Of a DNA stretch of 32,000 nucleotides, positions 2,168 through 9,853 are shown piece by piece. The position numbers were made by a program, and so were the translations under genes. The stretch's first letter is position 1; the number at the start of each line of letters is the position of its first letter. The notes under the pieces are model-generated. The model saw only the letters and a list, made by a program, of their open reading frames with translations, was not told where the DNA came from and did no database searches. Source of the DNA: Ignavibacteriales bacterium (GTDB lineage Bacteria > Bacteroidota > Ignavibacteria > Ignavibacteriales > Melioribacteraceae); the NCBI GenBank assembly GCA_027348115.1, contig DAIEQA010000212.1, positions 1-32,000 on the forward strand. Reading direction: 5' to 3'.

Positions 2168-2806
2168 TTAATAATAGAATCTGAATCCGATGCGCATCAT
2201 TAATCCGCTCATATCAAATTTACGTTCGAATACTTTATTGCGGCCTGTCTGGGAATCCCGAACATCGTACTGCCAGCTTGGCTGAGAATAATGGTAATCG
2301 ATCTCGGCAAATACATCGGATCTTCTGCCGAGTTCGTAGGCAACACCGCCGCCAATGCGCCAGGCAAAATCGAAAGCGGCTTTAAATTCATTATTATCCG
2401 GGTTATCGTAATTTCTATAAAATATAAGAAGGGCCTCTACGCCCGCTGCGCCAGTAAAAAATGCTCTCATGCGCGGACCTACATCCCAGCTGCCGGTAAC
2501 ATTACCCATTAATGGAACCGCGTGCAGATTTGTTTTGGCCCTAAGTTCATTTAGCGTACTGTTCGGTCCAAAGAAGTCACTGAACTGGGAAACCAATTGT
2601 TGATCTACATAATTTTTATTGAACCAATCCGCGCTCCAGCCAACCATAAAATTATCGTCGATATTCCACCCGCCTTCATAACCGATGATGAACCCGGCAT
2701 CCGTTGCGCCCGGTGTAAATACGCCGAACTTTACGCTTCCATAATGGGGCTGTGCCGAAATCATCAAGGGCATACAAAGTATCGCCAAAGCTATTATTCG
2801 TTTCAT
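2168..2806 (-). CDS. outer-membrane beta-barrel protein (porin-family/OMP_b-brl-like)
   Basis: 212 aa. Signal peptide MKRIIALAILCMPLMISAQP, alternating aromatic/Gly-rich beta-strand pattern, and a C-terminal aromatic beta-signal (RIGFRFYY). Confidence 0.7.
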   Translation of the reverse strand: MKRIIALAILCMPLMISAQPHYGSVKFGVFTPGATDAGFIIGYEGGWNIDDNFMVGWSADWFNKNYVDQQLVSQFSDFFGPNSTLNELRAKTNLHAVPLMGNVTGSWDVGPRMRAFFTGAAGVEALLIFYRNYDNPDNNEFKAAFDFAWRIGGGVAYELGRRSDVFAEIDYHYSQPSWQYDVRDSQTGRNKVFERKFDMSGLMMRIGFRFYY

Positions 2807-2972
2807 TGTTATATCCCGTTTAATTTGACAGTAGGTTTAGGCAATTCAAATGCCAGTTTTATGTATTGTATTGCCGCTTATTTGGATGCATCAAACAGGT
2901 ATTTGTTCTACAAAGTAAACAATAGGACATGAATAATGTACACCGGCTTGAAAAATTTTCATGGCTTGTTAT

Positions 2973-3541
2973 CCCCGTCGTGAACGACGTGGCAGACAAC
3001 CCATCTATCCATCCGTATCGTTTACAATACGGTTAGAAGAGAACCAATCTAAGAGTTAAGTGGCTTTTGCACTACTCTTTTTTCGGCTAAAGCCGGTGAT
3101 ACTAATTATTTTATTCGTTAACTTTTGGTCGCGCAACAGTCATGGTATTCTTCAAATATCTACTTAACCGTATCATTTAAGATACGGTTACAGCGTCATT
3201 CATTAAGCATTCATGGGCTTTAGCCCAATTCTCTCTTTCGGCTAAAGCTGTTGAGTTTCTTCTATGCCTCACTAACTCAACCGTGAACGACGGAGTGGAT
3301 ATCATTATATGTTTATCAATCACGTAACGGTATCGGCGTTCTTCATGTCTGCCAAACCGCGTCATTTATGATACGGTTACAGCGTCATTCATTAAGCATT
3401 CATGGGCTTTTTAGCCCAACTCTCTTCGGTTAAAGCCGAGTGTCACCTCTGTATGCTGCCAACTCACATAAGCTACAACCATATCGTTTGCGATATGGTA
3501 CACCGGTAACCAGCACCAAGTCTATCCGGGCTTTAGCCCAA
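2973..3541. repeat. REP/BIME-like composite hairpin-repeat block A (core block about 3076-3541, plus leader hairpins at 2973-2992 and 3013-3032)
   Basis: Three hairpin families are arranged in a fixed order. H1 is GGGCTTTAGCCC or its complement CGGCTAAAGCCG. H2 is CCGTATC-ATTTA-GATACGG. H3 is NNCCG-TGAA-CGGNN. An internal ~85-bp unit occurs twice (3166-3250 and 3355-3437). The block aligns almost base for base with 3971-4491. Confidence 0.9.
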
Positions 3542-3990
3542 CTTACTTCCCGTATCGTGAATGAAAACTTCAAACTCTTCCGAGAAACCTTTTATTCTAT
3601 GATGCTCTGCCTGATTATCAATATATCTTCTAACTTTTTCCACGTGAGCATCGCTTACCGATGCAGCGTAGTATTCATTCGCCCATTCGAATTTTGTTGT
3701 AGTAATATGATTCTGATTAATCCAATGAGAAGCTTCGCCCTTGATTAGATTTACTACCTTAGAAAGATTTTGATCCGTGCCTAACGAAACAAGGCAGTGC
3801 AGATGATCGTGGTATCCATTGATGGAATCGATGAATATATTTTTTATCCGGCTGTTTTCTTTTATGTGATTAATAACTTTTGCGAGGATTTCATTTGTGA
3901 GGAAAGGGGCTCTGTTTTTTGTTCCGAATACAATGTGAACCCAGATTTTAACGAAGGACATAAAGACCTCCTCTGTTTCGGCTAAAGCCG
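3528..3990 (-). mobile_element. minimal IS200-like unit: tnpA bracketed by inverted H1 REP hairpins
   Basis: GGGCTTTAGCCCAA (3528-3541) lies at the gene's 3' end and CTCTGTTTCGGCTAAAGCCG (3971-3990) at its 5' end. The same two arms, in the same relative orientation, form the gene-less doublets at 3215-3250, 3404-3438, 4142-4177 and 4328-4363. Confidence 0.6.
3533..3961 (-). CDS. IS200/IS605-family Y1 (HUH) transposase TnpA-like / REP-associated tyrosine transposase (RAYT)
   Basis: 142 aa. N-terminus KIWVHIVFGTKNR, HUH motif in GYHDHLHCLV, catalytic-Tyr helix VRRYIDNQAEHH. The last codons (KLG-stop) are encoded by the H1 hairpin GGGCTTTAGCCCAA. Confidence 0.85.
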   Translation of the reverse strand: MSFVKIWVHIVFGTKNRAPFLTNEILAKVINHIKENSRIKNIFIDSINGYHDHLHCLVSLGTDQNLSKVVNLIKGEASHWINQNHITTTKFEWANEYYAASVSDAHVEKVRRYIDNQAEHHRIKGFSEEFEVFIHDTGSKLG

Positions 3991-4491
3991 GTGATACTAA
4001 TTATTTTATTCGTTAACTCCGTCGTGAACGACGGAGTTAATACCACTATACGTTTTGGTCGCGCAACAGTCATGGTATTCTTCAAATATCTACTGAACCG
4101 CCTCGTTTATGATACGGTTACCGCGTCTATCAAAAGTCTTTGGGCTTTAGCCCAATTCTCTCTTTCGGCTAAAGCTGTTGAGTCTCTTCTATGCCTCACT
4201 AACTCAACCGTGAACGAAGGAGTTGATATCACTATATGTTTATCAATCACGTAACGGCATCGGCGTTCTTCATATCTGCCAAACCGTATCATTTATGATA
4301 CGGTTACAGCGTCTATCAAAAGTCTTTGGGCTTTAGCCCAATTCTCTCTTTCGGCTAAAGCTGAGTGTCACCTCTGTATGCTGCCAACACTACCGTGAAC
4401 GGTAGTGTTGCCATCACATAAGCTACAACCATATCGTTTACGAGATGGTACACCGGCAACCATCACCGAGTCTATCCGGGCTTTAGCCCAA
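3971..4491. repeat. REP/BIME-like composite hairpin-repeat block B (direct repeat of block A)
   Basis: Collinear with 3076-3541. It has scattered substitutions, two extra hairpin modules (4018-4052 and 4389-4413) and one replaced linker segment. It ends in GGGCTTTAGCCCAA 6 nt before the methyltransferase stop codon. Confidence 0.9.
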
Positions 4492-4497
4492 TAGATC

Positions 4498-5937
4498 TTA
4501 TAACTCCAATTCTTCCTGGTGCGATCTCTTCCCCTTTTTAGCCGCGGCTTTAAAAGTAATATTCACCGATGGCAGTTTCGGTCTCTTATTCAAAAAATAT
4601 TCTTTCAATGTAAGAATCTGCAGCCGCGGATATTTGTATCCCGGAACATCTACAAACCCCGAAGCGGCAACTGTTTCCATCATCGGCTTTGTGGGATTCT
4701 CTATTGTTAAAAAAACTCCAAGCTGACATTTATGTTTATCCATTGCGCCTATAAGCGCATCAATATCTTTGGATTGAATATGCGTTCCTCCTTTTACCTG
4801 GAAAGCCGCTTTTATAGTTTCGTTTGAATTCGGATCGATAAGATACTGCCCTATTCCGTCAACGCCTTTATCCGCCCCCTTTGTGCCGAACGTTGTTGAG
4901 AATACCTCAAACTCCGTAAGCCACCAGTCCTGAAACGCGTTTGGATTTTGCTTCCACAATTCTTCCGCGCTCACTTCGTCAACAGGCACACCCCTTACTT
5001 CAAACGGATTTAATGATTTGCCGTACGTATCCTTTAGTCTTCTCTTAATCAGCGATATTGCTATTGGAGAAATATCAATTCCAATCCAGTTGCGGTGAAG
5101 CGATTCCGCCGCGTCTACAGTTGTTCCGCATCCGCAAAATCCGTCGAGCACAGTATCTCCTTCATTGCTGCTTGCCTTAATTATTCTTTCAAGCAATGTT
5201 TTTGGTTTTTGTGTTGGGTAACCTAGCCGTTCTTTTGCTTGTGAATTAATCACAGGAATATCCCATACATCATCTAAAGGTCTTCCGAGTGATTCATCCT
5301 CTGTCATTTTTGTTACTAATCTAACATCACCGTCGAACTCCACCAAACTTTTTTTACCTTTCCACCTTTTCAACGTCCCAGCGGATAGTTCTCCAAAAAT
5401 TGTATTAAAAGTATTCTCGCGATATTCTTTCGAATAGAATAATATTATATCGTGCATTCTTTGAAAATTCTTCTGAATGGCAGGCCATCTTTTATAATGC
5501 CAAGCAATTTCATTTCTAAATCCTTTTGCATCAAATATTATATCAAGCACAGTTTTTAAGTAATGACTCATCGTCGGGTCGCAGTGAAGATAAAAGCTGC
5601 CGGTAGGTTTAAGAACACGATGCAATTCAATTAAACGTAAGCTCATCATTACGAGATACGGAAAAGCGTGCGGCGCAACCTTTTGGTAAGTAAGCAAAAG
5701 ATAGAACAAATGTTCCGTCTTCATCGTATTCAGTTCGTTAAGTGAATCCTGGATATTCTTTAAAGTCCATGTGTCTTCAAATGCAATTCGCTGCGTTTGA
5801 ATTTCCTTATCGTCGAAGAAAATATTGTAATCGCGTTTACTGTTAAACGGCGGGTCGATATAGACGAGATCAACAGATTCGTCTTTAATGTTCTCCCGCA
5901 AAACATTAAGACAATCTCCCAGGTATAAGTAGTTCAT
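4498..5937 (-). CDS. DNA methyltransferase (beta-class N6-adenine/N4-cytosine) fused to a C-terminal Mrr-like restriction-endonuclease domain
   Basis: 479 aa. Motif IV (VDLVYIDPPFNS) is near the N-terminus and the AdoMet motif I (VLDGFCGCGTTVDAAE) at about residue 265, which is the beta-class order. The C-terminal ~150 aa carry a PD-(D/E)xK-like pattern (GADKGVDGIG ... AAFQVKGG ... GVFLT), as in Mrr_cat. Confidence 0.85.
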   Translation of the reverse strand: MNYLYLGDCLNVLRENIKDESVDLVYIDPPFNSKRDYNIFFDDKEIQTQRIAFEDTWTLKNIQDSLNELNTMKTEHLFYLLLTYQKVAPHAFPYLVMMSLRLIELHRVLKPTGSFYLHCDPTMSHYLKTVLDIIFDAKGFRNEIAWHYKRWPAIQKNFQRMHDIILFYSKEYRENTFNTIFGELSAGTLKRWKGKKSLVEFDGDVRLVTKMTEDESLGRPLDDVWDIPVINSQAKERLGYPTQKPKTLLERIIKASSNEGDTVLDGFCGCGTTVDAAESLHRNWIGIDISPIAISLIKRRLKDTYGKSLNPFEVRGVPVDEVSAEELWKQNPNAFQDWWLTEFEVFSTTFGTKGADKGVDGIGQYLIDPNSNETIKAAFQVKGGTHIQSKDIDALIGAMDKHKCQLGVFLTIENPTKPMMETVAASGFVDVPGYKYPRLQILTLKEYFLNKRPKLPSVNITFKAAAKKGKRSHQEELEL

Positions 5938-6424
5938 GTTAGTATGGATTTGTTAATGGTAATTTGCAACTTAACATATTTTAAAATAAAATGAATAAAA
6001 ACGTTTGCCGCTTTCATTGCGGCGTAAAAAAAATGCGCGGGCGCGGGCAGCCCGCATAACCGTAAAATTATTTTTAGCGGCATTTCATTTATCCTTTTTA
6101 GAGAATGCAAATATTAAAACACGAACCCGCCGCATCATACCGAATTTTTCTATTGCATCTTACTTAAACTTTTATATTTTTATTAACAAATATATTTAAG
6201 TTTAAGCGGTTCGACTTCCAAACTGAATATTCGTTTTTTTCTTTAATATAAATTTCCTTTCCTGTTCTTTTTCTGTTCAGTTAGTAATAAGCGTTCTTTT
6301 AATTTTGGGAATGCCGCAACGGGCATCCATCTAATTACCCGCGGCCTTTATAACGGCTCGTTCCATAGCCATCTTACTCCGGCTGCGGGTAATTTTAAAT
6401 TACAGGCGGAAAGGATTAAATAAG

Positions 6425-6637
6425 TACCGGACTGTTGTAACTAAACGCCGGACTGTATTAAATACACGGCAGAAGGAATCATAGAGACAACGGAACGTAT
6501 CGTAGGAACTACGGAAAGTGTCATAGGGTCGGCGGAAAGTACTATAGGAACAACGGAGAGTATCATAGTAACCCCGGAATGTATTATAGAAACAGCGGAA
6601 CGTATTAAAGGAGGGGCGACGAACATTAAAGATGGCG
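6425..6637. repeat. tandem array of about ten degenerate 21-bp repeats (consensus CGGAAnGTATcATAGgAAC)
   Basis: The CGGA core recurs at 6428, 6449, 6491, 6512, 6533, 6554, 6575 and 6596, exactly 21 bp apart. Degenerate units sit at 6470 and 6617. The array is intergenic, between divergent genes. Confidence 0.85.
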
Positions 6638-6978
6638 TAAACTATGCCATAAATGAGGTTTTGGTAAATATTGAGTTACAGCGTCAAAGAGTATGTTCGG
6701 TAATTGAGTATGGTTGAGGCAAGCAATTATTTTAGTATCAAGCAAAAAATACGGTTTTCTTATCCATCAATTGCCGCAAACACTCTGAATTAAAAGCAGT
6801 AATTCTCTCTTATTTTGCAGGATGTAGAGTTAAACACGGTTTGTGATCCATTTTCTTTTTCTCTTTGAGGTCGGTTACTTTTTATTATTTGAGAGATGTA
6901 ATTCATAAGGATAAATAATATTTCCTTTTCTCTTCACTAATAATAAACTAATTAGCCCATAAATAAGGGATAACGTAA

Positions 6979-7683
6979 ATGGGAAAAGCGGAAGAAAAAA
7001 CACGTATTTTTTCAGGTTCCGATGCCGATATGGTACAGGCATCGCGGGTTGCACACGGTTTGTTTACTGAAGACAAACCGGCCTTCATAAGTTTCGATTC
7101 TTCGTTTGCAGATCCCTTCGGTGAAAATTGGCTTCAAAAAATTGAGAACGCCGCAGCGGTAAGCCAGGATTCGCAGTACGTAGGCGGTCAATCCGAATTA
7201 ACTGAGAATGTTGAAACAATCATGGAAAATTGCAGAACATTTTTTCAATCCATGAAATATTTTATTGAGAAAGCTTTCCCGGGTCAAACAGCAATTCATG
7301 TTCAATTCGGTTATAACGATTACGATGCCAGCCGCAAGTCCGAGACAAGGATGATTAAATTCCTCGATATGCTTCATAAAGCGGCAGTTGGCCACAGCGC
7401 AAAGTTAATTGAGGCAGGATTTCCCCAGGAAAAAATTGATAATATAGCCGCGCTTAGCAAACAATTATCCGATGCGGATTATGCCCAGGAAATGGCGAAG
7501 AAAAAAAGACCCTCCGTTACCCAGGAAAGAATAACAATTTTAAATGATTGTTATGAAGTAATGCAGCATGTATGCAAAGCCGGAAAAATTATATTTGCCG
7601 ACGACCGCGCTAAGTACGATCAATATTTATTACCGAACGAAAGAACACAGGAAAAAGAAGAACCTGCGGCTCCAGTAAATTAA
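6979..7683 (+). CDS. hypothetical protein (predicted mostly alpha-helical, no motif recognised)
   Basis: 234-aa ORF with ATG start after AAGGGA. Its composition is protein-like and no competing ORF exists. A REP hairpin follows 8 nt after the stop. Confidence 0.6.
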   Translation: MGKAEEKTRIFSGSDADMVQASRVAHGLFTEDKPAFISFDSSFADPFGENWLQKIENAAAVSQDSQYVGGQSELTENVETIMENCRTFFQSMKYFIEKAFPGQTAIHVQFGYNDYDASRKSETRMIKFLDMLHKAAVGHSAKLIEAGFPQEKIDNIAALSKQLSDADYAQEMAKKKRPSVTQERITILNDCYEVMQHVCKAGKIIFADDRAKYDQYLLPNERTQEKEEPAAPVN

Positions 7684-7690
7684 TTTAAGC

Positions 7691-7718
7691 GTAGAGACGT
7701 TCGATCGAACGTCTCTAC
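7691..7718. repeat. REP hairpin, family 2 (GTAGAGACGTTCGATCGAACGTCTCTAC)
   Basis: Perfect 28-nt palindrome immediately upstream of the second RAYT. The same GTAGAGACG/CGTCTCTAC arms recur at 8278-8347 and 8597-8622, and the GAGACG core at 9820-9845. Confidence 0.85.
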
Positions 7719-7782
7719 AACATTAGATGACAAAATATAAAAACACATATCGAATTGAATCGGCTCGTTTAGAAACATGGGA

Positions 7783-8064
7783 TTTATCCCGTGAGATATA
7801 TTATGAGATATTTTTATGTATATGTATTAAAATCGAAAATAGACGGTAAATTTTATACCGGCTATACTAAGGATATTATTAGTAGAATTAAAGAGCATAA
7901 TCACGGCAAAGTATATTCTACAAAGAATAGAATACCTCTCAAACTAATTTATTGGGAGGGGTGTCTAAATCAAACGGATGCAACAAATCGAGAAAAATAT
8001 CTGAAAACCGCCTGGGGAAAGAGGTATATTAAAAATAGAATAAAAAATTATCTCACGGGATAAA
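7783..8064 (+). mobile_element. 282-bp insertion carrying a GIY-YIG ORF, bounded by perfect 16-bp inverted repeats
   Basis: TTTATCCCGTGAGATA (7783-7798) is the exact reverse complement of TATCTCACGGGATAAA (8049-8064). The segment separates the two halves of the RAYT reading frame. Confidence 0.75.
7803..8063 (+). CDS. small stand-alone GIY-YIG nuclease-family protein (UPF0213/YhbQ-like)
   Basis: 86 aa from ATG 7803 (the track starts at GTG 7791). Motifs: FYVYVLKS...GKFYTGYT (GIY...YIG), a conserved Arg in SRIKEHN, and NREKYLK (Glu). No DNA-binding extension is present. Confidence 0.85.
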   Translation: MRYFYVYVLKSKIDGKFYTGYTKDIISRIKEHNHGKVYSTKNRIPLKLIYWEGCLNQTDATNREKYLKTAWGKRYIKNRIKNYLTG

Positions 8065-8277
8065 CTCCCTGGTGGTATTACGTAACAATATGTACAAAAA
8101 AACATCTTGAATCGTTCGGAAAAATTGCAAATGCTGAAATGCATTTAAATGAATGCGGAATGATTGCATCAAAATGTTGGAAAGAAATTCCAAGTCATTT
8201 CCAAAATGCAGATTTAGATTATTATGTAATTATGCCGAATCATCTACATGGGATAATAATTATTAATCAAATAACCA

Positions 8278-8347
8278 GTAGAGACGTTGCACCCGTCTCG
8301 ACTCGGCTGGATGCGAGTCCAGACGAGGCGGAACGCAACGTCTCCAC
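8278..8347. repeat. nested REP-in-REP hairpin inside the RAYT coding sequence
   Basis: The outer arms GTAGAGACGTTGC / GCAACGTCTCCAC enclose an inner hairpin CGTCTCGACTCG-gctggatg-CGAGTCCAGACG. The element stays in frame and encodes SRDVAPVSTRLDASPDEAERNVST. Confidence 0.75.
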
Positions 8348-8596
8348 AAATAATTTTTATTCTGAAATTTCACCACGAAAAGGAACGCTTTCTGTAATAA
8401 TAAGATCATTCAAATCGGCATGTTCCAAAGAGATTCATGGTAAGACCCTTAATAATTTTGCATGGCAACCGCGTTTTTATGATAGAATTATTCGTAATGA
8501 AAAGGAATTGTACAATGTCAGGAAATATATTGAACTGAATCCTTTAAAATGGGAAATAGAAAAATTTGTACCGGAGAATATCGATTTATTCTAATG

Positions 8597-8622
8597 GTAG
8601 ACGTTGCATGCAACGTCTCTAC
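8597..8622. repeat. REP hairpin, family 2 (GTAGACGTTGCATGCAACGTCTCTAC)
   Basis: It begins 3 nt after the RAYT stop and has the same arms as 7691-7718, with a 2-nt bulge. The long ORF-track start at 8566 reads through it. Confidence 0.8.
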
Positions 8623-8655
8623 AAAAAATTTATAAACAAATATTCCGGAGGAAAC

Positions 8656-9816
8656 ATGGCAGAGCAAACCGGAAACGAAAAGGGCCCGGAAGAACAGAAA
8701 AAAGAACCGGACAGCTCCCCCAGCATTGATACTCTAAACGCCGAATTCTTAAAAGACCTAAAAGAAAATCCAAGGTATGTTCCCTTCTTTGAGCAGTACG
8801 AAACGCAGAGTGTAAAACATTTTATTGAACATTACGCGCGTCATAAGGCTATGTTGTTAACATATGGTAATTTATATGTAAAAGGTTATCAAAAAAGAAT
8901 TTCGCAGTATGCGGAAATGGCCGAGGAAAAATTATGGGAGATACAGCAGAGAAAATTATTCGATCTGCAATGCAGATGGAGGGCGAACCAGGTTAAAGTG
9001 CCGGAAATAAATACTACGGCCGACTTTATATTTTATGAAAAGAATATACGGCAATGCACATTTCTTACGCCTATATCCCAAGAGGAGTTTGACCGCTATT
9101 TGAATTTTGTTAAATCTTCTTCTTACGAGGATATATTTTTTGAAGATTGCGCGGACTGGCAGGATTACGAAGAACTCAAGGATTATTATATATACGGGCC
9201 TGAATCCGACGAGTACATGGAAGAAATTCTGCCGTGGTATGAATACTATGAAAGCGTAACCGGTCTTTCAGAATTATATTTACTCCCGGATTTGCGCGGT
9301 GAAAAAGAGAAATTCTACCGCAAGCTTTATTTCGATACAAAGACGAAAGAAAGTAAGCAGCAAAAAAAAGAAGAACCGCGGAAAGAACCTGATAAGCGTC
9401 CTACTATTGGTTTTGCCGATAACGAATTTATTGCGCATTTTATTGAAAAATTTGAGAATCATATACTTCTGCTCTACCATAAAGCGTATGTTAACGAACA
9501 GGAACTTGAAGATGACGGGGATTTGGAAAACGCTATTGAAACATTGAAAACAGCGGACAGGCTCCTTACTCTAAAAGAAGATACGGATTGGAGGAGCGCC
9601 CTAATTTCCGCGGCAAACGATTATGTTAAAACCAGGTTGATTGAAGAACTCCCCATAGCTTATAAAAACTATTTGTTCCGTATCGAATTAAAACTTGGTT
9701 TTCATACCGAAAACGATAATTACGACGACTGGTACGAAACATATAAAAAATACTCTAATGAAGCCGTACTGGGAGGGAGAGAATTGAACGGAGAGCCAAG
9801 GGATTTTAATTTTTAA
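8656..9816 (+). CDS. hypothetical protein (acidic, aromatic-rich, central Lys/Glu-rich linker)
   Basis: 386 aa from ATG 8656, which is preceded by GGAGG. The track's upstream extension overlaps the RAYT 3' end and the REP. No motif recognised. Confidence 0.65.
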   Translation: MAEQTGNEKGPEEQKKEPDSSPSIDTLNAEFLKDLKENPRYVPFFEQYETQSVKHFIEHYARHKAMLLTYGNLYVKGYQKRISQYAEMAEEKLWEIQQRKLFDLQCRWRANQVKVPEINTTADFIFYEKNIRQCTFLTPISQEEFDRYLNFVKSSSYEDIFFEDCADWQDYEELKDYYIYGPESDEYMEEILPWYEYYESVTGLSELYLLPDLRGEKEKFYRKLYFDTKTKESKQQKKEEPRKEPDKRPTIGFADNEFIAHFIEKFENHILLLYHKAYVNEQELEDDGDLENAIETLKTADRLLTLKEDTDWRSALISAANDYVKTRLIEELPIAYKNYLFRIELKLGFHTENDNYDDWYETYKKYSNEAVLGGRELNGEPRDFNF

Positions 9817-9819
9817 TTT

Positions 9820-9845
9820 GAGACGCCCCGTAAAAGGGCGTCTCT
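9820..9845. terminator. hairpin between convergent genes (REP-like GAGACG core), possibly a bidirectional terminator
   Basis: GAGACGCCC-cgtaaaa-GGGCGTCTC forms a 9-bp stem, located between the stops at 9816 (+) and 9854 (-). The flanks are only weakly T-rich. Confidence 0.5.
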
Positions 9846-9853
9846 ATAAAAAT

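What the first reader, a model, noticed from the sequence alone, without database searches (positions are those of the whole stretch)
6425..6637. Ten strictly 21-bp-phased degenerate tandem repeats in a 1-kb gene-free gap
**Seen in sequence.** The CGGA cores lie at 6428, 6449, 6491, 6512, 6533, 6554, 6575 and 6596, with degenerate units at 6470 and 6617. They keep an exact 21-bp register while the unit sequence drifts (consensus CGGAAnGTATcATAGgAAC).

Twenty-one bp is two helical turns, so every unit faces the same side of the DNA. A very AT-rich stretch (about 6160-6300) lies just upstream.

**Alternative readings (all inference).**
- An iteron-like or cooperative binding array, for example a replication or partition site of an integrated element, or an operator for the divergent methyltransferase and 6979 genes.
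- A protein-sponge sRNA. Each unit carries an A/C-GGA motif like CsrA/RsmA-binding RNAs, though I could not place the GGA motifs in hairpin loops.
- A heptad-repeat micro-ORF on the minus strand (6441..6626, repeat xIxSxVx). It lacks a ribosome-binding site and is almost uniformly hydrophobic.
Basis: partly seen in the sequence, partly recalled or inferred. Interest (0 to 1): 0.65.

Follow-up and report, generated by a model that had tools for sequence, protein, structure and literature searches.

The report
Phased 21-bp repeats guarding unknown gene
The 21-bp repeat array is real, non-coding, and is the conserved upstream partner of an uncharacterised all-helical protein gene in Ignavibacteria, Bacteroidota and Cloacimonadota, which makes it a new two-part module of unknown function.

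Summary
Window 6404-6637 holds 11 units in exact 21-bp register, nine of them with a + strand CGGA core.

The array belongs to the downstream gene 6979-7683, not to the methyltransferase. That gene encodes a 234-aa all-alpha protein with no Pfam family and no fold match. Of 55 distinct homologous loci with enough upstream sequence, 46 carry at least 4 units of a 21-bp array upstream of the gene. These loci share only 30-70% protein identity and span three phyla.

The period never changes: 81 of 87 core spacings are exact multiples of 21. A short + strand core (G)GCGGA(A), often followed by N5-TCA, recurs across lineages. The rest of each unit turns over quickly and in concert within an array.

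No coding signal was found, and there is no Rfam match. No terminator lies between array and gene, no DnaA box is nearby, and no plasmid or phage homologue exists. No RNA-seq data cover any locus.

My best reading (about 0.4) is a helically phased, iteron-like protein-binding DNA array that controls the partner gene. The main rival (about 0.3) is a transcribed multivalent repeat RNA. The function of the module is unknown.

The parts
6153..6180 (+). Conserved promoter-like block, TTGCAT-N14-TATATTTT. It is the candidate promoter of the module. This is inferred, not mapped.
   Evidence: TTGCAT and ATATTTT are invariant in the alignment of W with L014, L019, L021 and L026. The block is also present in L087. 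It lies inside the 22-nt palindrome 6163-6206.
6160..6300 (+). A+T-rich, pyrimidine-rich leader between the promoter-like block and the array.
   Evidence: 77% A+T. Partly conserved in close relatives. Not conserved in distant loci.
6333..6394 (+). Local inverted repeat just upstream of the array: 14-nt arms, AATTACCCGCGGCC / GGCTGCGGGTAATT.
   Evidence: 93% complementary. It forms the only stable helix in the RNA fold of 6187-6700. L087 has a different hairpin at a similar place.
6404..6637 (+). The array: 11 direct repeats in exact 21-bp register. Unit consensus is CGGAAaGTATCATAGgAAC plus 2 variable bases. Nine units carry the CGGA core on the + strand.
   Evidence: Homologous arrays in relatives.
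6638..6978 (+). Spacer of 341 bp between array and start codon. Its last ~60 bp, which include an AAGGG ribosome-binding-like motif, are conserved in close relatives.
   Evidence: No + strand terminator here.
6979..7683 (+). Partner gene: a 234-aa acidic, all-alpha protein of a family known only from uncultured FCB-group bacteria.
   Evidence: - No Pfam family.
- Weak, sub-threshold similarity to NCBIfam PQLLE_fam.
- 39-107 homologue clusters, all from MAGs or metagenomes.
- AlphaFold pLDDT 88.7, helices only.
- No fold or PDB match.
- pI 5-6.8.
7691..7718 (.). Perfect 28-bp palindrome, GTAGAGACGTTCGATCGAACGTCTCTAC, 8 bp after the stop codon. It is probably a REP-like hairpin or terminator that closes the module.
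   Evidence: Self-inverted BLAST match. Sequence.

Best explanation
The array is a non-coding set of helically phased protein-binding sites on double-stranded DNA. It is iteron-like or operator-like. It belongs to the upstream control region of gene 6979-7683 and is inherited together with that gene.

**Proposed mechanism.**
- Each 21-bp unit (two turns of B-DNA) presents one short asymmetric core, (G)GCGGA(A). In many lineages a second contact, TCA, follows five bases later.
- All cores therefore face the same side of the helix, and a bound protein can polymerise or bind cooperatively along it.
- The rest of the unit is spacer. It is homogenised within each array by unequal exchange.
- The number of units (3 to 27) would set the strength or threshold of the response.
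- The binder is most simply the product of the linked gene (autoregulation or nucleoprotein assembly), or else a dedicated regulator.

**Shown.** The array is real. It partners with the gene family. The period is invariant and the core is strand-specific. The spacer turns over in concert. There is no coding signal.

**Inferred.** That the relevant molecule is dsDNA rather than RNA, who binds it, and what binding does.
For: - **Partnership with the gene.** 46 of 55 distinct loci of the family have at least 4 units within 1 kb upstream. In 320 kb of locus DNA, 25 of 26 lag-21 runs of 100 bp or more are this array. Lags 17-20 and 22-25 give 0-1 runs each.
- **Register exact to the base.** 81 of 87 spacings between consecutive CGGA cores are multiples of 21. 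None is 20 or 22. This holds even in old, 66%-identical arrays such as the window's. Such rigidity fits a stiff lattice like duplex DNA better than a flexible single strand.
- **Short conserved core.** CGGA is in the unit consensus of 19 of 46 arrays on the gene strand. That compares with 3 on the other strand and 3.5 in shuffles. GGCG gives 13, 1 and 2.6. Ten arrays share CGGA-N5-TC(A).
- **Core kept, spacer replaced.**
  - L014 and L047 have 93% identical flanks but arrays that differ in concert, keeping only GGCGGA..TCA.
  - Three paralogues in one MAG have 92-95% identical proteins but units that share only the (C/T)GGA core.
  - The strain SNPs restore the consensus.
- **Not coding.**
  - No three-base periodicity of conservation (Fisher p=0.46).
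  - Stop codons in all frames in many arrays.
  - The frame that is open in the window is closed by TAA or TAG in each unit of L087, L025 and L020, while the nucleotides are kept.
- **Not a structured RNA.** z-scores are about 0 for the window and there is no Rfam match.
- **Both orientations occur.** Some loci carry an extra inverted arm of units (<<< >>>). That is natural for DNA sites but would sequester single-stranded RNA sites.
Against: - No transcript data exist for any locus. Whether the array is upstream of the promoter or inside a long 5' leader is therefore unknown.
- In the window's clade the only conserved promoter-like block lies about 220 bp upstream of the array. If it is the gene's promoter, the array is transcribed.
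- In several Bacteroidia loci only 45-64 bp separate the array from the ATG. No Bacteroidetes-type -7 box is recognisable there.
- The partner protein is acidic to neutral (pI 5-6.8). It has no recognisable DNA-binding fold.
- About 60% of arrays lack the CGGA core.
- Nine of 55 loci fell below the 4-unit threshold; two of these keep about 3 units and the rest have no clear array.
- Exact unit length could be kept partly by concerted evolution rather than by selection on helical phase.
Confidence: 0.4

Rival explanations
1. The array is transcribed with, or just ahead of, the gene and acts as RNA. It would be a multivalent repeat RNA in which each 21-nt unit offers one GCGGA site to a protein. 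The array would then titrate, assemble or neutralise that protein. The protein could be the gene's own product, as in a type III toxin-antitoxin pair where repeat RNA neutralises the adjacent protein, or as in a sponge.
For: - The array always sits on the gene's strand side, directly upstream, and the core is strand-specific (19 versus 3).
- The conserved promoter-like block lies upstream of the array in the window's clade.
- Gaps of only 45-64 bp to the ATG, with no recognisable promoter, occur in several loci.
- The + strand is purine-rich and unstructured in the window.
- In the Melioribacteraceae clade the module sits beside defence genes: cas9, Gabija and MTase-REase.
- Several genomes carry 2-3 copies.
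- A short 4-5 nt motif is typical of RNA-binding proteins.
Against: - No terminator lies between array and gene in W, L014, L028 or L033.
- A 21-nt unit has no predicted fold.
- The protein is all-alpha, with no match to ToxN/AbiQ or any PADLOC model.
- Exact spacing with no +/-1 variation is not expected for sites joined by flexible single-stranded linkers.
- Inverted arms in some loci would base-pair with the sites.
- There is no expression evidence at all.
Confidence: 0.3
2. The array is, or recently was, protein-coding heptad repeats (21 nt = 7 codons). One candidate is the + frame (T/A)(T/A)E-x-I-I-(G/E). The other is the reader's 61-aa minus-strand ORF 6441-6626.
For: - The period is exactly 7 codons.
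- The + frame is open from 6445 to 6717 and reads as a heptad pattern.
- L014 has an ATG in that frame.
- The minus-strand ORF has an ATG and was called by a gene finder.
- In the window, second-codon-like columns are the most conserved (reading).
Against: - The window's + frame has no ATG, GTG or TTG before 6659, and it has TAA stops in the first two units.
- The same frame is closed in every unit of L087, L025 and L020.
- L017 units have stops in all three + frames.
- Many arrays carry stops in every frame.
- There is no three-base periodicity across 24 arrays.
- The minus-strand ORFs of W and L087 are in different frames and are dissimilar.
- An exhaustive HMMER search found only unrelated repeat ORFs with E of 2e-7 or weaker.
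Confidence: 0.05
3. The array plus the A+T-rich stretch is a plasmid-type iteron origin, and the 234-aa protein is its initiator. The whole would be a minimal replicon integrated in the chromosome.
For: - Direct repeats phased at two helical turns lie next to a 77% A+T stretch and directly upstream of a single ~230-aa gene. This is the layout of pSC101- or pPS10-type replicons, which I cite from established knowledge.
- DNA-run contigs hint that block 6183-7739 is a discrete unit.
Against: - No DnaA box.
- The protein has no strands and no winged-helix or Rep family match.
- There are no homologues in 72,556 plasmids, 50,697 phages or IMG/VR.
- Loci lie in chromosomal contigs up to 1.9 Mb, with ordinary neighbours and no other plasmid genes.
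Confidence: 0.07
4. The array has no function of its own. It is a fast-evolving minisatellite that hitch-hikes in the long upstream region of this gene, perhaps modulating expression by copy-number change (contingency locus).
For: - Unit number ranges from 3 to 27, and unit sequence turns over quickly.
- Some arrays are nearly perfect copies, for example L028 at 0.97.
- Nine loci fell below the 4-unit threshold.
Against: - A neutral satellite would not reappear with the same 21-bp period and the same strand-specific core in 46 loci of three phyla.
- It would not stay free of indels at 66% unit identity.
- Four co-occurring strains show no copy-number variation.
Confidence: 0.1

Closest known systems
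Plasmid iterons (pSC101, pPS10, R6K, P1, F) with their Rep initiators
   Same: - Asymmetric direct repeats about 20 bp long, phased at two helical turns.
- Placed directly upstream of one linked gene, next to an A+T-rich stretch.
- Repeats occur in both orientations in some loci.
- Array and gene are inherited together as one module.
   Different: - The period is 21 rather than the usual 22, and there are up to 27 units.
- There is no DnaA box, and the partner protein is all-alpha with no Rep or winged-helix signal.
- The loci are chromosomal and absent from plasmid and phage collections.
- Only a 5-7 bp core is conserved.
Type III toxin-antitoxin systems (ToxIN, CptIN, TenpIN): repeat RNA antitoxin upstream of its toxin gene
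   Same: - A tandem direct-repeat array lies immediately upstream of, and co-oriented with, a single protein gene.
- Array sequence differs between systems.
- Several copies can occur per genome.
- Some loci are in a defence-island setting.
   Different: - Units are 21 nt, not 34-45 nt, and have no predicted fold.
- No terminator separates array and gene.
- The protein is not a ToxN/AbiQ-type endoribonuclease.
- Transcription and processing are untested.
Phased operator repeats with 21-bp centre-to-centre spacing (paired ARG boxes of ArgR; 9-bp direct repeats with 12-bp spacers of LytTR regulators such as AgrA and ComE). Cited from established knowledge.
   Same: The two-turn (21-bp) spacing puts successive sites on one face of the DNA for cooperative binding upstream of a regulated gene.
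   Different: - Those operators have 2-3 sites, not 4-27.
- ARG boxes are palindromes, whereas these units show no dyad symmetry beyond chance.
- No ArgR or LytTR gene is linked.
Centromere-like repeat arrays that double as operators (parC of R1, 10 x 11 bp; heptad arrays bound by omega of pSM19035)
   Same: Many contiguous short direct repeats lie upstream of the operon that encodes their binding protein. The repeats are bound cooperatively into a higher-order complex.
   Different: - No partition NTPase is present.
- Unit length differs.
- The partner protein is not a ribbon-helix-helix protein.
- The loci are chromosomal.
CsrB/RsmZ-type sponge RNAs
   Same: Many GGA-containing motifs occur in one short stretch (window and about 40% of the arrays).
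   Different: - No hairpin presents the GGA motifs.
- The spacing is exact instead of irregular.
- There is no own terminator and no Rfam match.
- Many homologous arrays have no GGA.

Membership tests
Iteron origin plus Rep (iteron-containing plasmids) | Tandem direct repeats of about 17-22 bp phased at about two helical turns | tested here: met
   11 units, exact 21-bp register
Iteron origin plus Rep (iteron-containing plasmids) | Adjacent A+T-rich unwinding region and DnaA box(es) | tested here: inconclusive
   Positions 6160-6300 are 77% A+T. No DnaA box with one mismatch or fewer lies anywhere near. The A+T-rich part also carries the promoter-like block.
Iteron origin plus Rep (iteron-containing plasmids) | Linked gene encodes a Rep initiator (winged-helix domains; Rep_3, RepA or similar) | tested here: not met
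   No Pfam or NCBIfam Rep hit. The AlphaFold model is helices only. No PDB fold or sequence match.
Iteron origin plus Rep (iteron-containing plasmids) | Resides on a plasmid or other autonomous replicon | tested here: not met
   Contigs up to 1.87 Mb with chromosomal genes. No tblastn hit in PLSDB, INPHARED or IMG/VR.
Type III toxin-antitoxin (ToxIN-like) | Tandem repeat array directly upstream of, and co-oriented with, the toxin gene | tested here: met
   46 of 55 loci. The core is on the gene's strand in 19 arrays versus 3.
Type III toxin-antitoxin (ToxIN-like) | Intrinsic terminator between repeats and toxin gene | tested here: not met
   No + strand terminator-like site in W, L014, L028 or L033
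Type III toxin-antitoxin (ToxIN-like) | Toxin is a ToxN/AbiQ/CptN-type endoribonuclease | tested here: not met
   No Pfam or PADLOC hit. The all-alpha model has no fold match.
Type III toxin-antitoxin (ToxIN-like) | Repeat RNA is transcribed, cut into units, and neutralises the toxin | not testable with these tools
   No RNA runs cover any locus
CsrA/RsmA sponge sRNA | Multiple GGA motifs presented in hairpin loops or single-stranded linkers of an independent sRNA | tested here: not met
   The GGA motifs are present, but no hairpins form (z 0.06 and -0.49). No + strand terminator. No CsrB/Rsm Rfam match even at E of 10 or below.
CsrA/RsmA sponge sRNA | GGA motif conserved in homologous elements | tested here: not met
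   GGA is in only 24 of 46 unit consensuses, and several arrays have none on either strand
Coding heptad repeat / micro-ORF | An ORF with a start codon spans the array and is kept in relatives | tested here: not met
   The window's + frame has no start codon. The - ORF occurs only in near-identical strains. Frames are closed in relatives, and the ORFs are dissimilar.
Coding heptad repeat / micro-ORF | Codon-position (three-base) pattern of conservation | tested here: not met
   24 arrays, combined p = 0.46
CRISPR or TIGR-type guide arrays | Conserved repeats alternating with unique spacers; Cas or Tas (Nop-domain) partner | tested here: not met
   Units are variants of one sequence with no unique spacers, and some arrays are 97% self-identical. 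The partner has no Nop or Cas match. The neighbouring cas9 in relatives is a separate, divergent unit that is absent from the window.

The most novel reading that the evidence does not exclude
The 21-bp array and the all-alpha protein together form a self-contained two-component system of a kind not yet described. The protein would assemble on its own repeat array, as DNA or as RNA, one subunit per 21-nt unit. The system would sit in defence or variable islands of FCB-group bacteria and act as a selfish or defensive module. One possibility is a helical-protein analogue of type III toxin-antitoxin systems. Another is a nucleoprotein switch.
Probability: 0.2. Interest if true: 0.8.

Novelty: new variant of a known kind. 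Interest (0 to 1): 0.6.

Why it matters
A non-coding element whose only deeply conserved properties are an exact 21-bp period and a 5-7 base strand-specific core is unusual. It is tied across three phyla to one uncharacterised protein family.

It gives a concrete, testable handle on a protein family with no annotation, no fold relatives and no cultured representative. One can ask whether the protein binds the array, as DNA or as RNA, and what spacing it requires.

If the pair proves to be a self-recognising module in defence islands, it would add a new architecture beside iteron/Rep, type III toxin-antitoxin and CRISPR-like arrays. If it is an ordinary operator array, it still documents a clear case of concerted evolution of binding sites under a helical-phase constraint.

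Tried and rejected
- **Rfam.** Searched at gathering thresholds and again at E of 10 or below. Only chance matches came back. No tRNA or tmRNA.
- **Coding in the + frame.** An exhaustive HMMER search of the 90-aa + frame gave only unrelated 21-bp-repeat ORFs with E of 2e-7 or weaker. One of them, L013, is a different 21-bp array next to unrelated genes.
- **Function of the partner protein.**
  - Pfam, NCBIfam, PHROGs and PADLOC gave nothing above threshold, only weak PQLLE_fam and DUF4473 similarity.
  - An AlphaFold model with Foldseek against PDB and BFVD returned only generic coiled coils, with E of 0.04 or worse.
  - A profile search against PDB sequences found nothing.
  - Two further homology searches did not reach any named or cultured member.
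- **Expression.** All four run searches and one read-laying run were used. The metatranscriptomes of the source study hold no contig of the locus, and no RNA runs were found for L036 or L060.
- **Bacteroidetes -7 box (TAnnTTTG).** Position scanned across 45 loci. Too few exact matches to place a promoter.
- **Internal dyad symmetry of units.** At first it looked present in L030, L035 and L037, but it is no more frequent than in shuffled units. I therefore dropped the argument that palindromic cores indicate DNA.
- **RNA structure of arrays.** z-scores are mixed (mean -1.3 and -0.9). The strongly negative ones are explained by inverted arms, not by unit hairpins.
- **Conserved flanking motifs.** None found across distant loci.
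- **Conserved neighbour genes.**
  - No neighbouring gene is conserved across all loci.
  - cas9 lies divergently upstream in five loci.
  - T9SS-cargo genes are frequent neighbours in Bacteroidia loci, but this was not tested statistically.
- **Literature.** Searches for PQLLE and for 21-bp repeats in Bacteroidota found nothing relevant.

Full report
**1.

Laid out in 21-base rows, window 6404-6637 shows 11 units in perfect register. CGGA occurs at 6407, 6428, 6449, 6491, 6512, 6533, 6554, 6575 and 6596. Degenerate cores lie at 6470 (CAGA) and 6617 (CGAC).

Lag-21 autocorrelation is 0.65-0.66, with harmonics at 42 and 63. Other lags give about 0.25, and in 2000 shuffles the maximum over all lags was at most 0.42. 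TRF finds the best 6.4 copies and no other period-21 array in the 32 kb window. The gap between the divergent methyltransferase-Mrr gene (4498-5937, -) and gene 6979-7683 (+) is 1041 bp.

**2. Setting.**

The window is chromosomal DNA of an Ignavibacteriota (Melioribacteraceae-like) MAG from mine-drainage metagenomes. It carries ccm genes, glutamate synthase and T9SS cargo.

Positions 2800-9850 form a patch of accessory genes: IS200-type tnpA, MTase-Mrr, the 234-aa gene, a small GIY-YIG gene, a RAYT-like gene and a 416-aa orphan.

Near-identical strain contigs keep all 11 units. The only two substitutions in the array (L004) both restore the consensus.

**3. The array belongs to the 6979 gene family.**

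The 234-aa protein has 39-107 homologue clusters, all from uncultured Ignavibacteria, Bacteroidia, Flavobacteriales, Chitinophagales, Sphingobacteriales and Cloacimonadota.

I fetched 31 loci from species-representative genomes, 40 from metagenomes, and several more by exact protein look-up.
- Of 55 distinct loci with at least 400 bp of upstream sequence, 46 have at least 4 units of a 21-bp-period array within 1 kb upstream of the gene. The median is 9 units and the range 4-27. Two more loci have about 3 units.
- As a control, across 320 kb of locus DNA 25 of 26 lag-21 runs of at least 100 bp are this array. Lags 17-20 and 22-25 give 0-1 runs each.

The left neighbour is not conserved.
- It is cas9-cas1 with a tracrRNA-like element in five loci.
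- It is GajA/GajB-like genes in the P0004 locus.
- It is a DNA methylase in W, L087 and L024.
- It is T9SS cargo or other genes elsewhere.

The array is therefore the partner of the downstream gene, not of the methyltransferase.

**4. What is conserved and what is not.**

The period is invariant. Among arrays that have CGGA cores, 81 of 87 successive spacings are exact multiples of 21 (61 are exactly 21), and none is 20 or 22.

The unit sequence is otherwise lineage-specific. Examples are CCGGAACGAATCCCAGGGATG in L015, AGGGGATCGCCCGATGATGAC in L028 and TGGCGAAGCAGGAGCGCGGAA in L033.

A short core recurs on the gene's strand. Counts are for the gene strand, the other strand and shuffled units:

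| Motif | Gene strand | Other strand | Shuffled |
|---|---|---|---|
| CGGA | 19 of 46 unit consensuses | 3 | 3.5 |
| GGCG | 13 | 1 | 2.6 |
| CGGAA | 13 | 2 | 1.5 |

Ten arrays share CGGA-N5-TC(A).

Turnover of the remainder is fast and concerted.
- L014 and L047 have 93% identical flanks. Their arrays differ at the same spacer positions in every unit and keep only GGCGGA..TCA.
- Three paralogues in one MAG encode 92-95% identical proteins. Their arrays have 19, 3 and 7 units that share only a (C/T)GGA core.
- The closest syntenic relative, L087 (67% protein identity, same methylase neighbour), has 4 units against the window's 11.

About 6-8 loci also carry an inverted arm of units to the left (<<< >>>). 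Flanking non-coding sequence is conserved only among close relatives.

**5. It is not coding.**
- The + frame that reads (T/A)(T/A)E-x-I-I-(G/E) is open in the window from 6445 to 6717. It has no start codon before 6659 and has TAA stops in the first two units.
- The same frame carries TAA or TAG in the units of L087, L025 and L020, while the nucleotides (ATCAACTAA) are kept.
- L017 units have stops in all three + frames, and many arrays have stops in every frame.
- Unit conservation has no three-base periodicity (24 arrays, combined p 0.46).
L087 has a different minus-strand ORF in another frame, with no similarity. The openness of the minus strand follows from its pyrimidine richness.
- An exhaustive search with the + frame peptide found only unrelated repeat ORFs.

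**6. It is not a known RNA, origin or guide array.**
- There is no Rfam match.
- The array and the putative leader have no significant fold: z is 0.06 for the array and -0.49 for 6187-6700.
- There is no + strand terminator after the array or before the gene in W, L014, L028 or L033.
- No DnaA box lies near it.
- The protein has no homologue in PLSDB plasmids, GenBank phages or IMG/VR.
- Units are variants of one sequence without unique spacers, so this is not a CRISPR or TIGR-type array.

**7. The partner protein.**

AlphaFold gives a confident (pLDDT 88.7) all-helical, elongated model with two long helices, 64-99 and 150-205. Foldseek against PDB and BFVD returns only generic coiled coils, and the profile search against PDB sequences finds nothing.

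The family is acidic to neutral (pI 5-6.8) with one conserved basic stretch, KKKRP..TQERI..LN. It has no signal peptide that I could see. Many Bacteroidia members add one or two C-terminal CarboxypepD_reg-like beta-sandwich domains.

The family is remotely similar to NCBIfam PQLLE_fam, with E down to 5e-11, below the family cut-off. I found no literature on that family.

**8. DNA or RNA?**

No expression data could be obtained, so this step is inference.

For DNA:
- The register is exact to the base, with free spacer sequence.
- There are no indels even in an old array.
- Both orientations occur in some loci.
- 21 bp equals two turns of B-DNA.

For RNA:
- The core is strand-specific.
- In the window's clade the only conserved promoter-like block lies upstream of the array (TTGCAT-N14-TATATTTT, window 6153-6180).
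- In some Bacteroidia loci only 45-64 bp separate the array from the ATG, with no recognisable promoter.

I put the DNA reading at about 0.4 and the RNA reading at about 0.3. The remainder is spread over a neutral or contingency minisatellite (0.1), an integrated iteron replicon (0.07) and coding repeats (0.05).

**9. Comparison with known systems.**

In layout the module is closest to iteron/Rep units and to type III toxin-antitoxin loci. In geometry it is closest to two-turn operator repeats (ARG boxes, LytTR sites). It fails defining features of each.
- Iteron replicon: no Rep fold, no plasmid context and no DnaA box.
- Type III toxin-antitoxin: no terminator, no ToxN-type toxin and no 34-45-nt folded unit.
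- Two-turn operators: no dyad symmetry and far more units than those operators have.

I therefore file it as a new variant of the phased direct-repeat binding array, partnered with a new protein family. I do not file it as a member of any named family.

**10. Verdict.**

The feature is real and conserved, and to my knowledge it is undescribed. Its biochemical role is open. The experiments in the next-steps field would settle DNA versus RNA and identify the binder.

Noticed in passing
window 6007-6056 (- strand) and 6163-6206: Two tandem intrinsic-terminator-like hairpins lie on the minus strand, just upstream of the methyltransferase start codon. A 22-nt A+T-rich palindrome carries a + strand TATATTTT and a - strand TATATTTG box back to back. 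Together they suggest a short minus-strand transcript (about 6180 to 6010) divergent from the module.
   Followed up: partly
window 6182/7740 (run X1): A DNA-run contig joins 6182 to 7740 through 19 unrelated bases, at depth 12.7 against about 9 for the full form. There are loose ends at 6165 and 7763. The block made of leader, array and gene may be present/absent polymorphic, or may sit in a second context in the community. It could also be an assembly effect of the REP-like GAGACG motif.
   Followed up: no
window 7691-7718, 8139-8594: A perfect 28-bp palindrome, GTAGAGACGTTCGATCGAACGTCTCTAC, follows the gene. A RAYT-like (REP-associated tyrosine transposase) gene lies 420 bp downstream. The GTAGAGACG motif recurs in loose read ends near 8264. 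This is probably a REP/RAYT system of this genome.
   Followed up: partly
window 4498-5937 versus L001, L002: The N6/N4 DNA methylase fused to an Mrr-like nuclease domain is 99% identical between strains only from 5494 rightwards. Further left it drops to 88% or is unalignable, which indicates recombination within the gene.
   Followed up: no
L014, L018, L020, L021, L026; P0004 locus; L024; L087: The slot to the left of the module holds different defence genes in different relatives: type II cas9-cas1 with a tracrRNA-like element, GajA/GajB-like genes, or DNA methylases. The module may mark the edge of a defence-gene hotspot.
   Followed up: partly
L015, L016, L017 (one MAG); L023 (tandem pair): Several genomes carry 2-3 copies of the gene. 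The three copies in MAG JASFMY are 92-95% identical in protein but have unrelated unit spacers and 19, 3 and 7 units. The tandem pair in L023 (92% identical) has no clear array.
   Followed up: partly
L013 1440-1640: This is an unrelated 21-bp array (AACCGCAGAAAGAATTATTGC, about 9 copies) from another metagenome. It was called as a 125-aa ORF and lies just upstream of a 186-aa ORF that is not related to the family. 21-bp arrays therefore also occur outside this module.
   Followed up: partly
L087 1240-1620: The intergenic region of the closest syntenic relative holds two other repeat families with hairpin cores, for example CACCGAGATGAATCTCGGTG in units of about 60 nt. These are absent from the window.
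   Followed up: no
window 8566-9816: A 416-aa ORF overlaps the end of the RAYT-like gene. It has no hit in Pfam, NCBIfam, PADLOC or PHROGs.
   Followed up: no
L033 5922-5986 (- strand): Two strong sigma-70-like promoter matches (11/12 and 10/12) lie between array and ATG but point leftwards into the array. This organism may not use that promoter type, so the significance is unclear.
   Followed up: no
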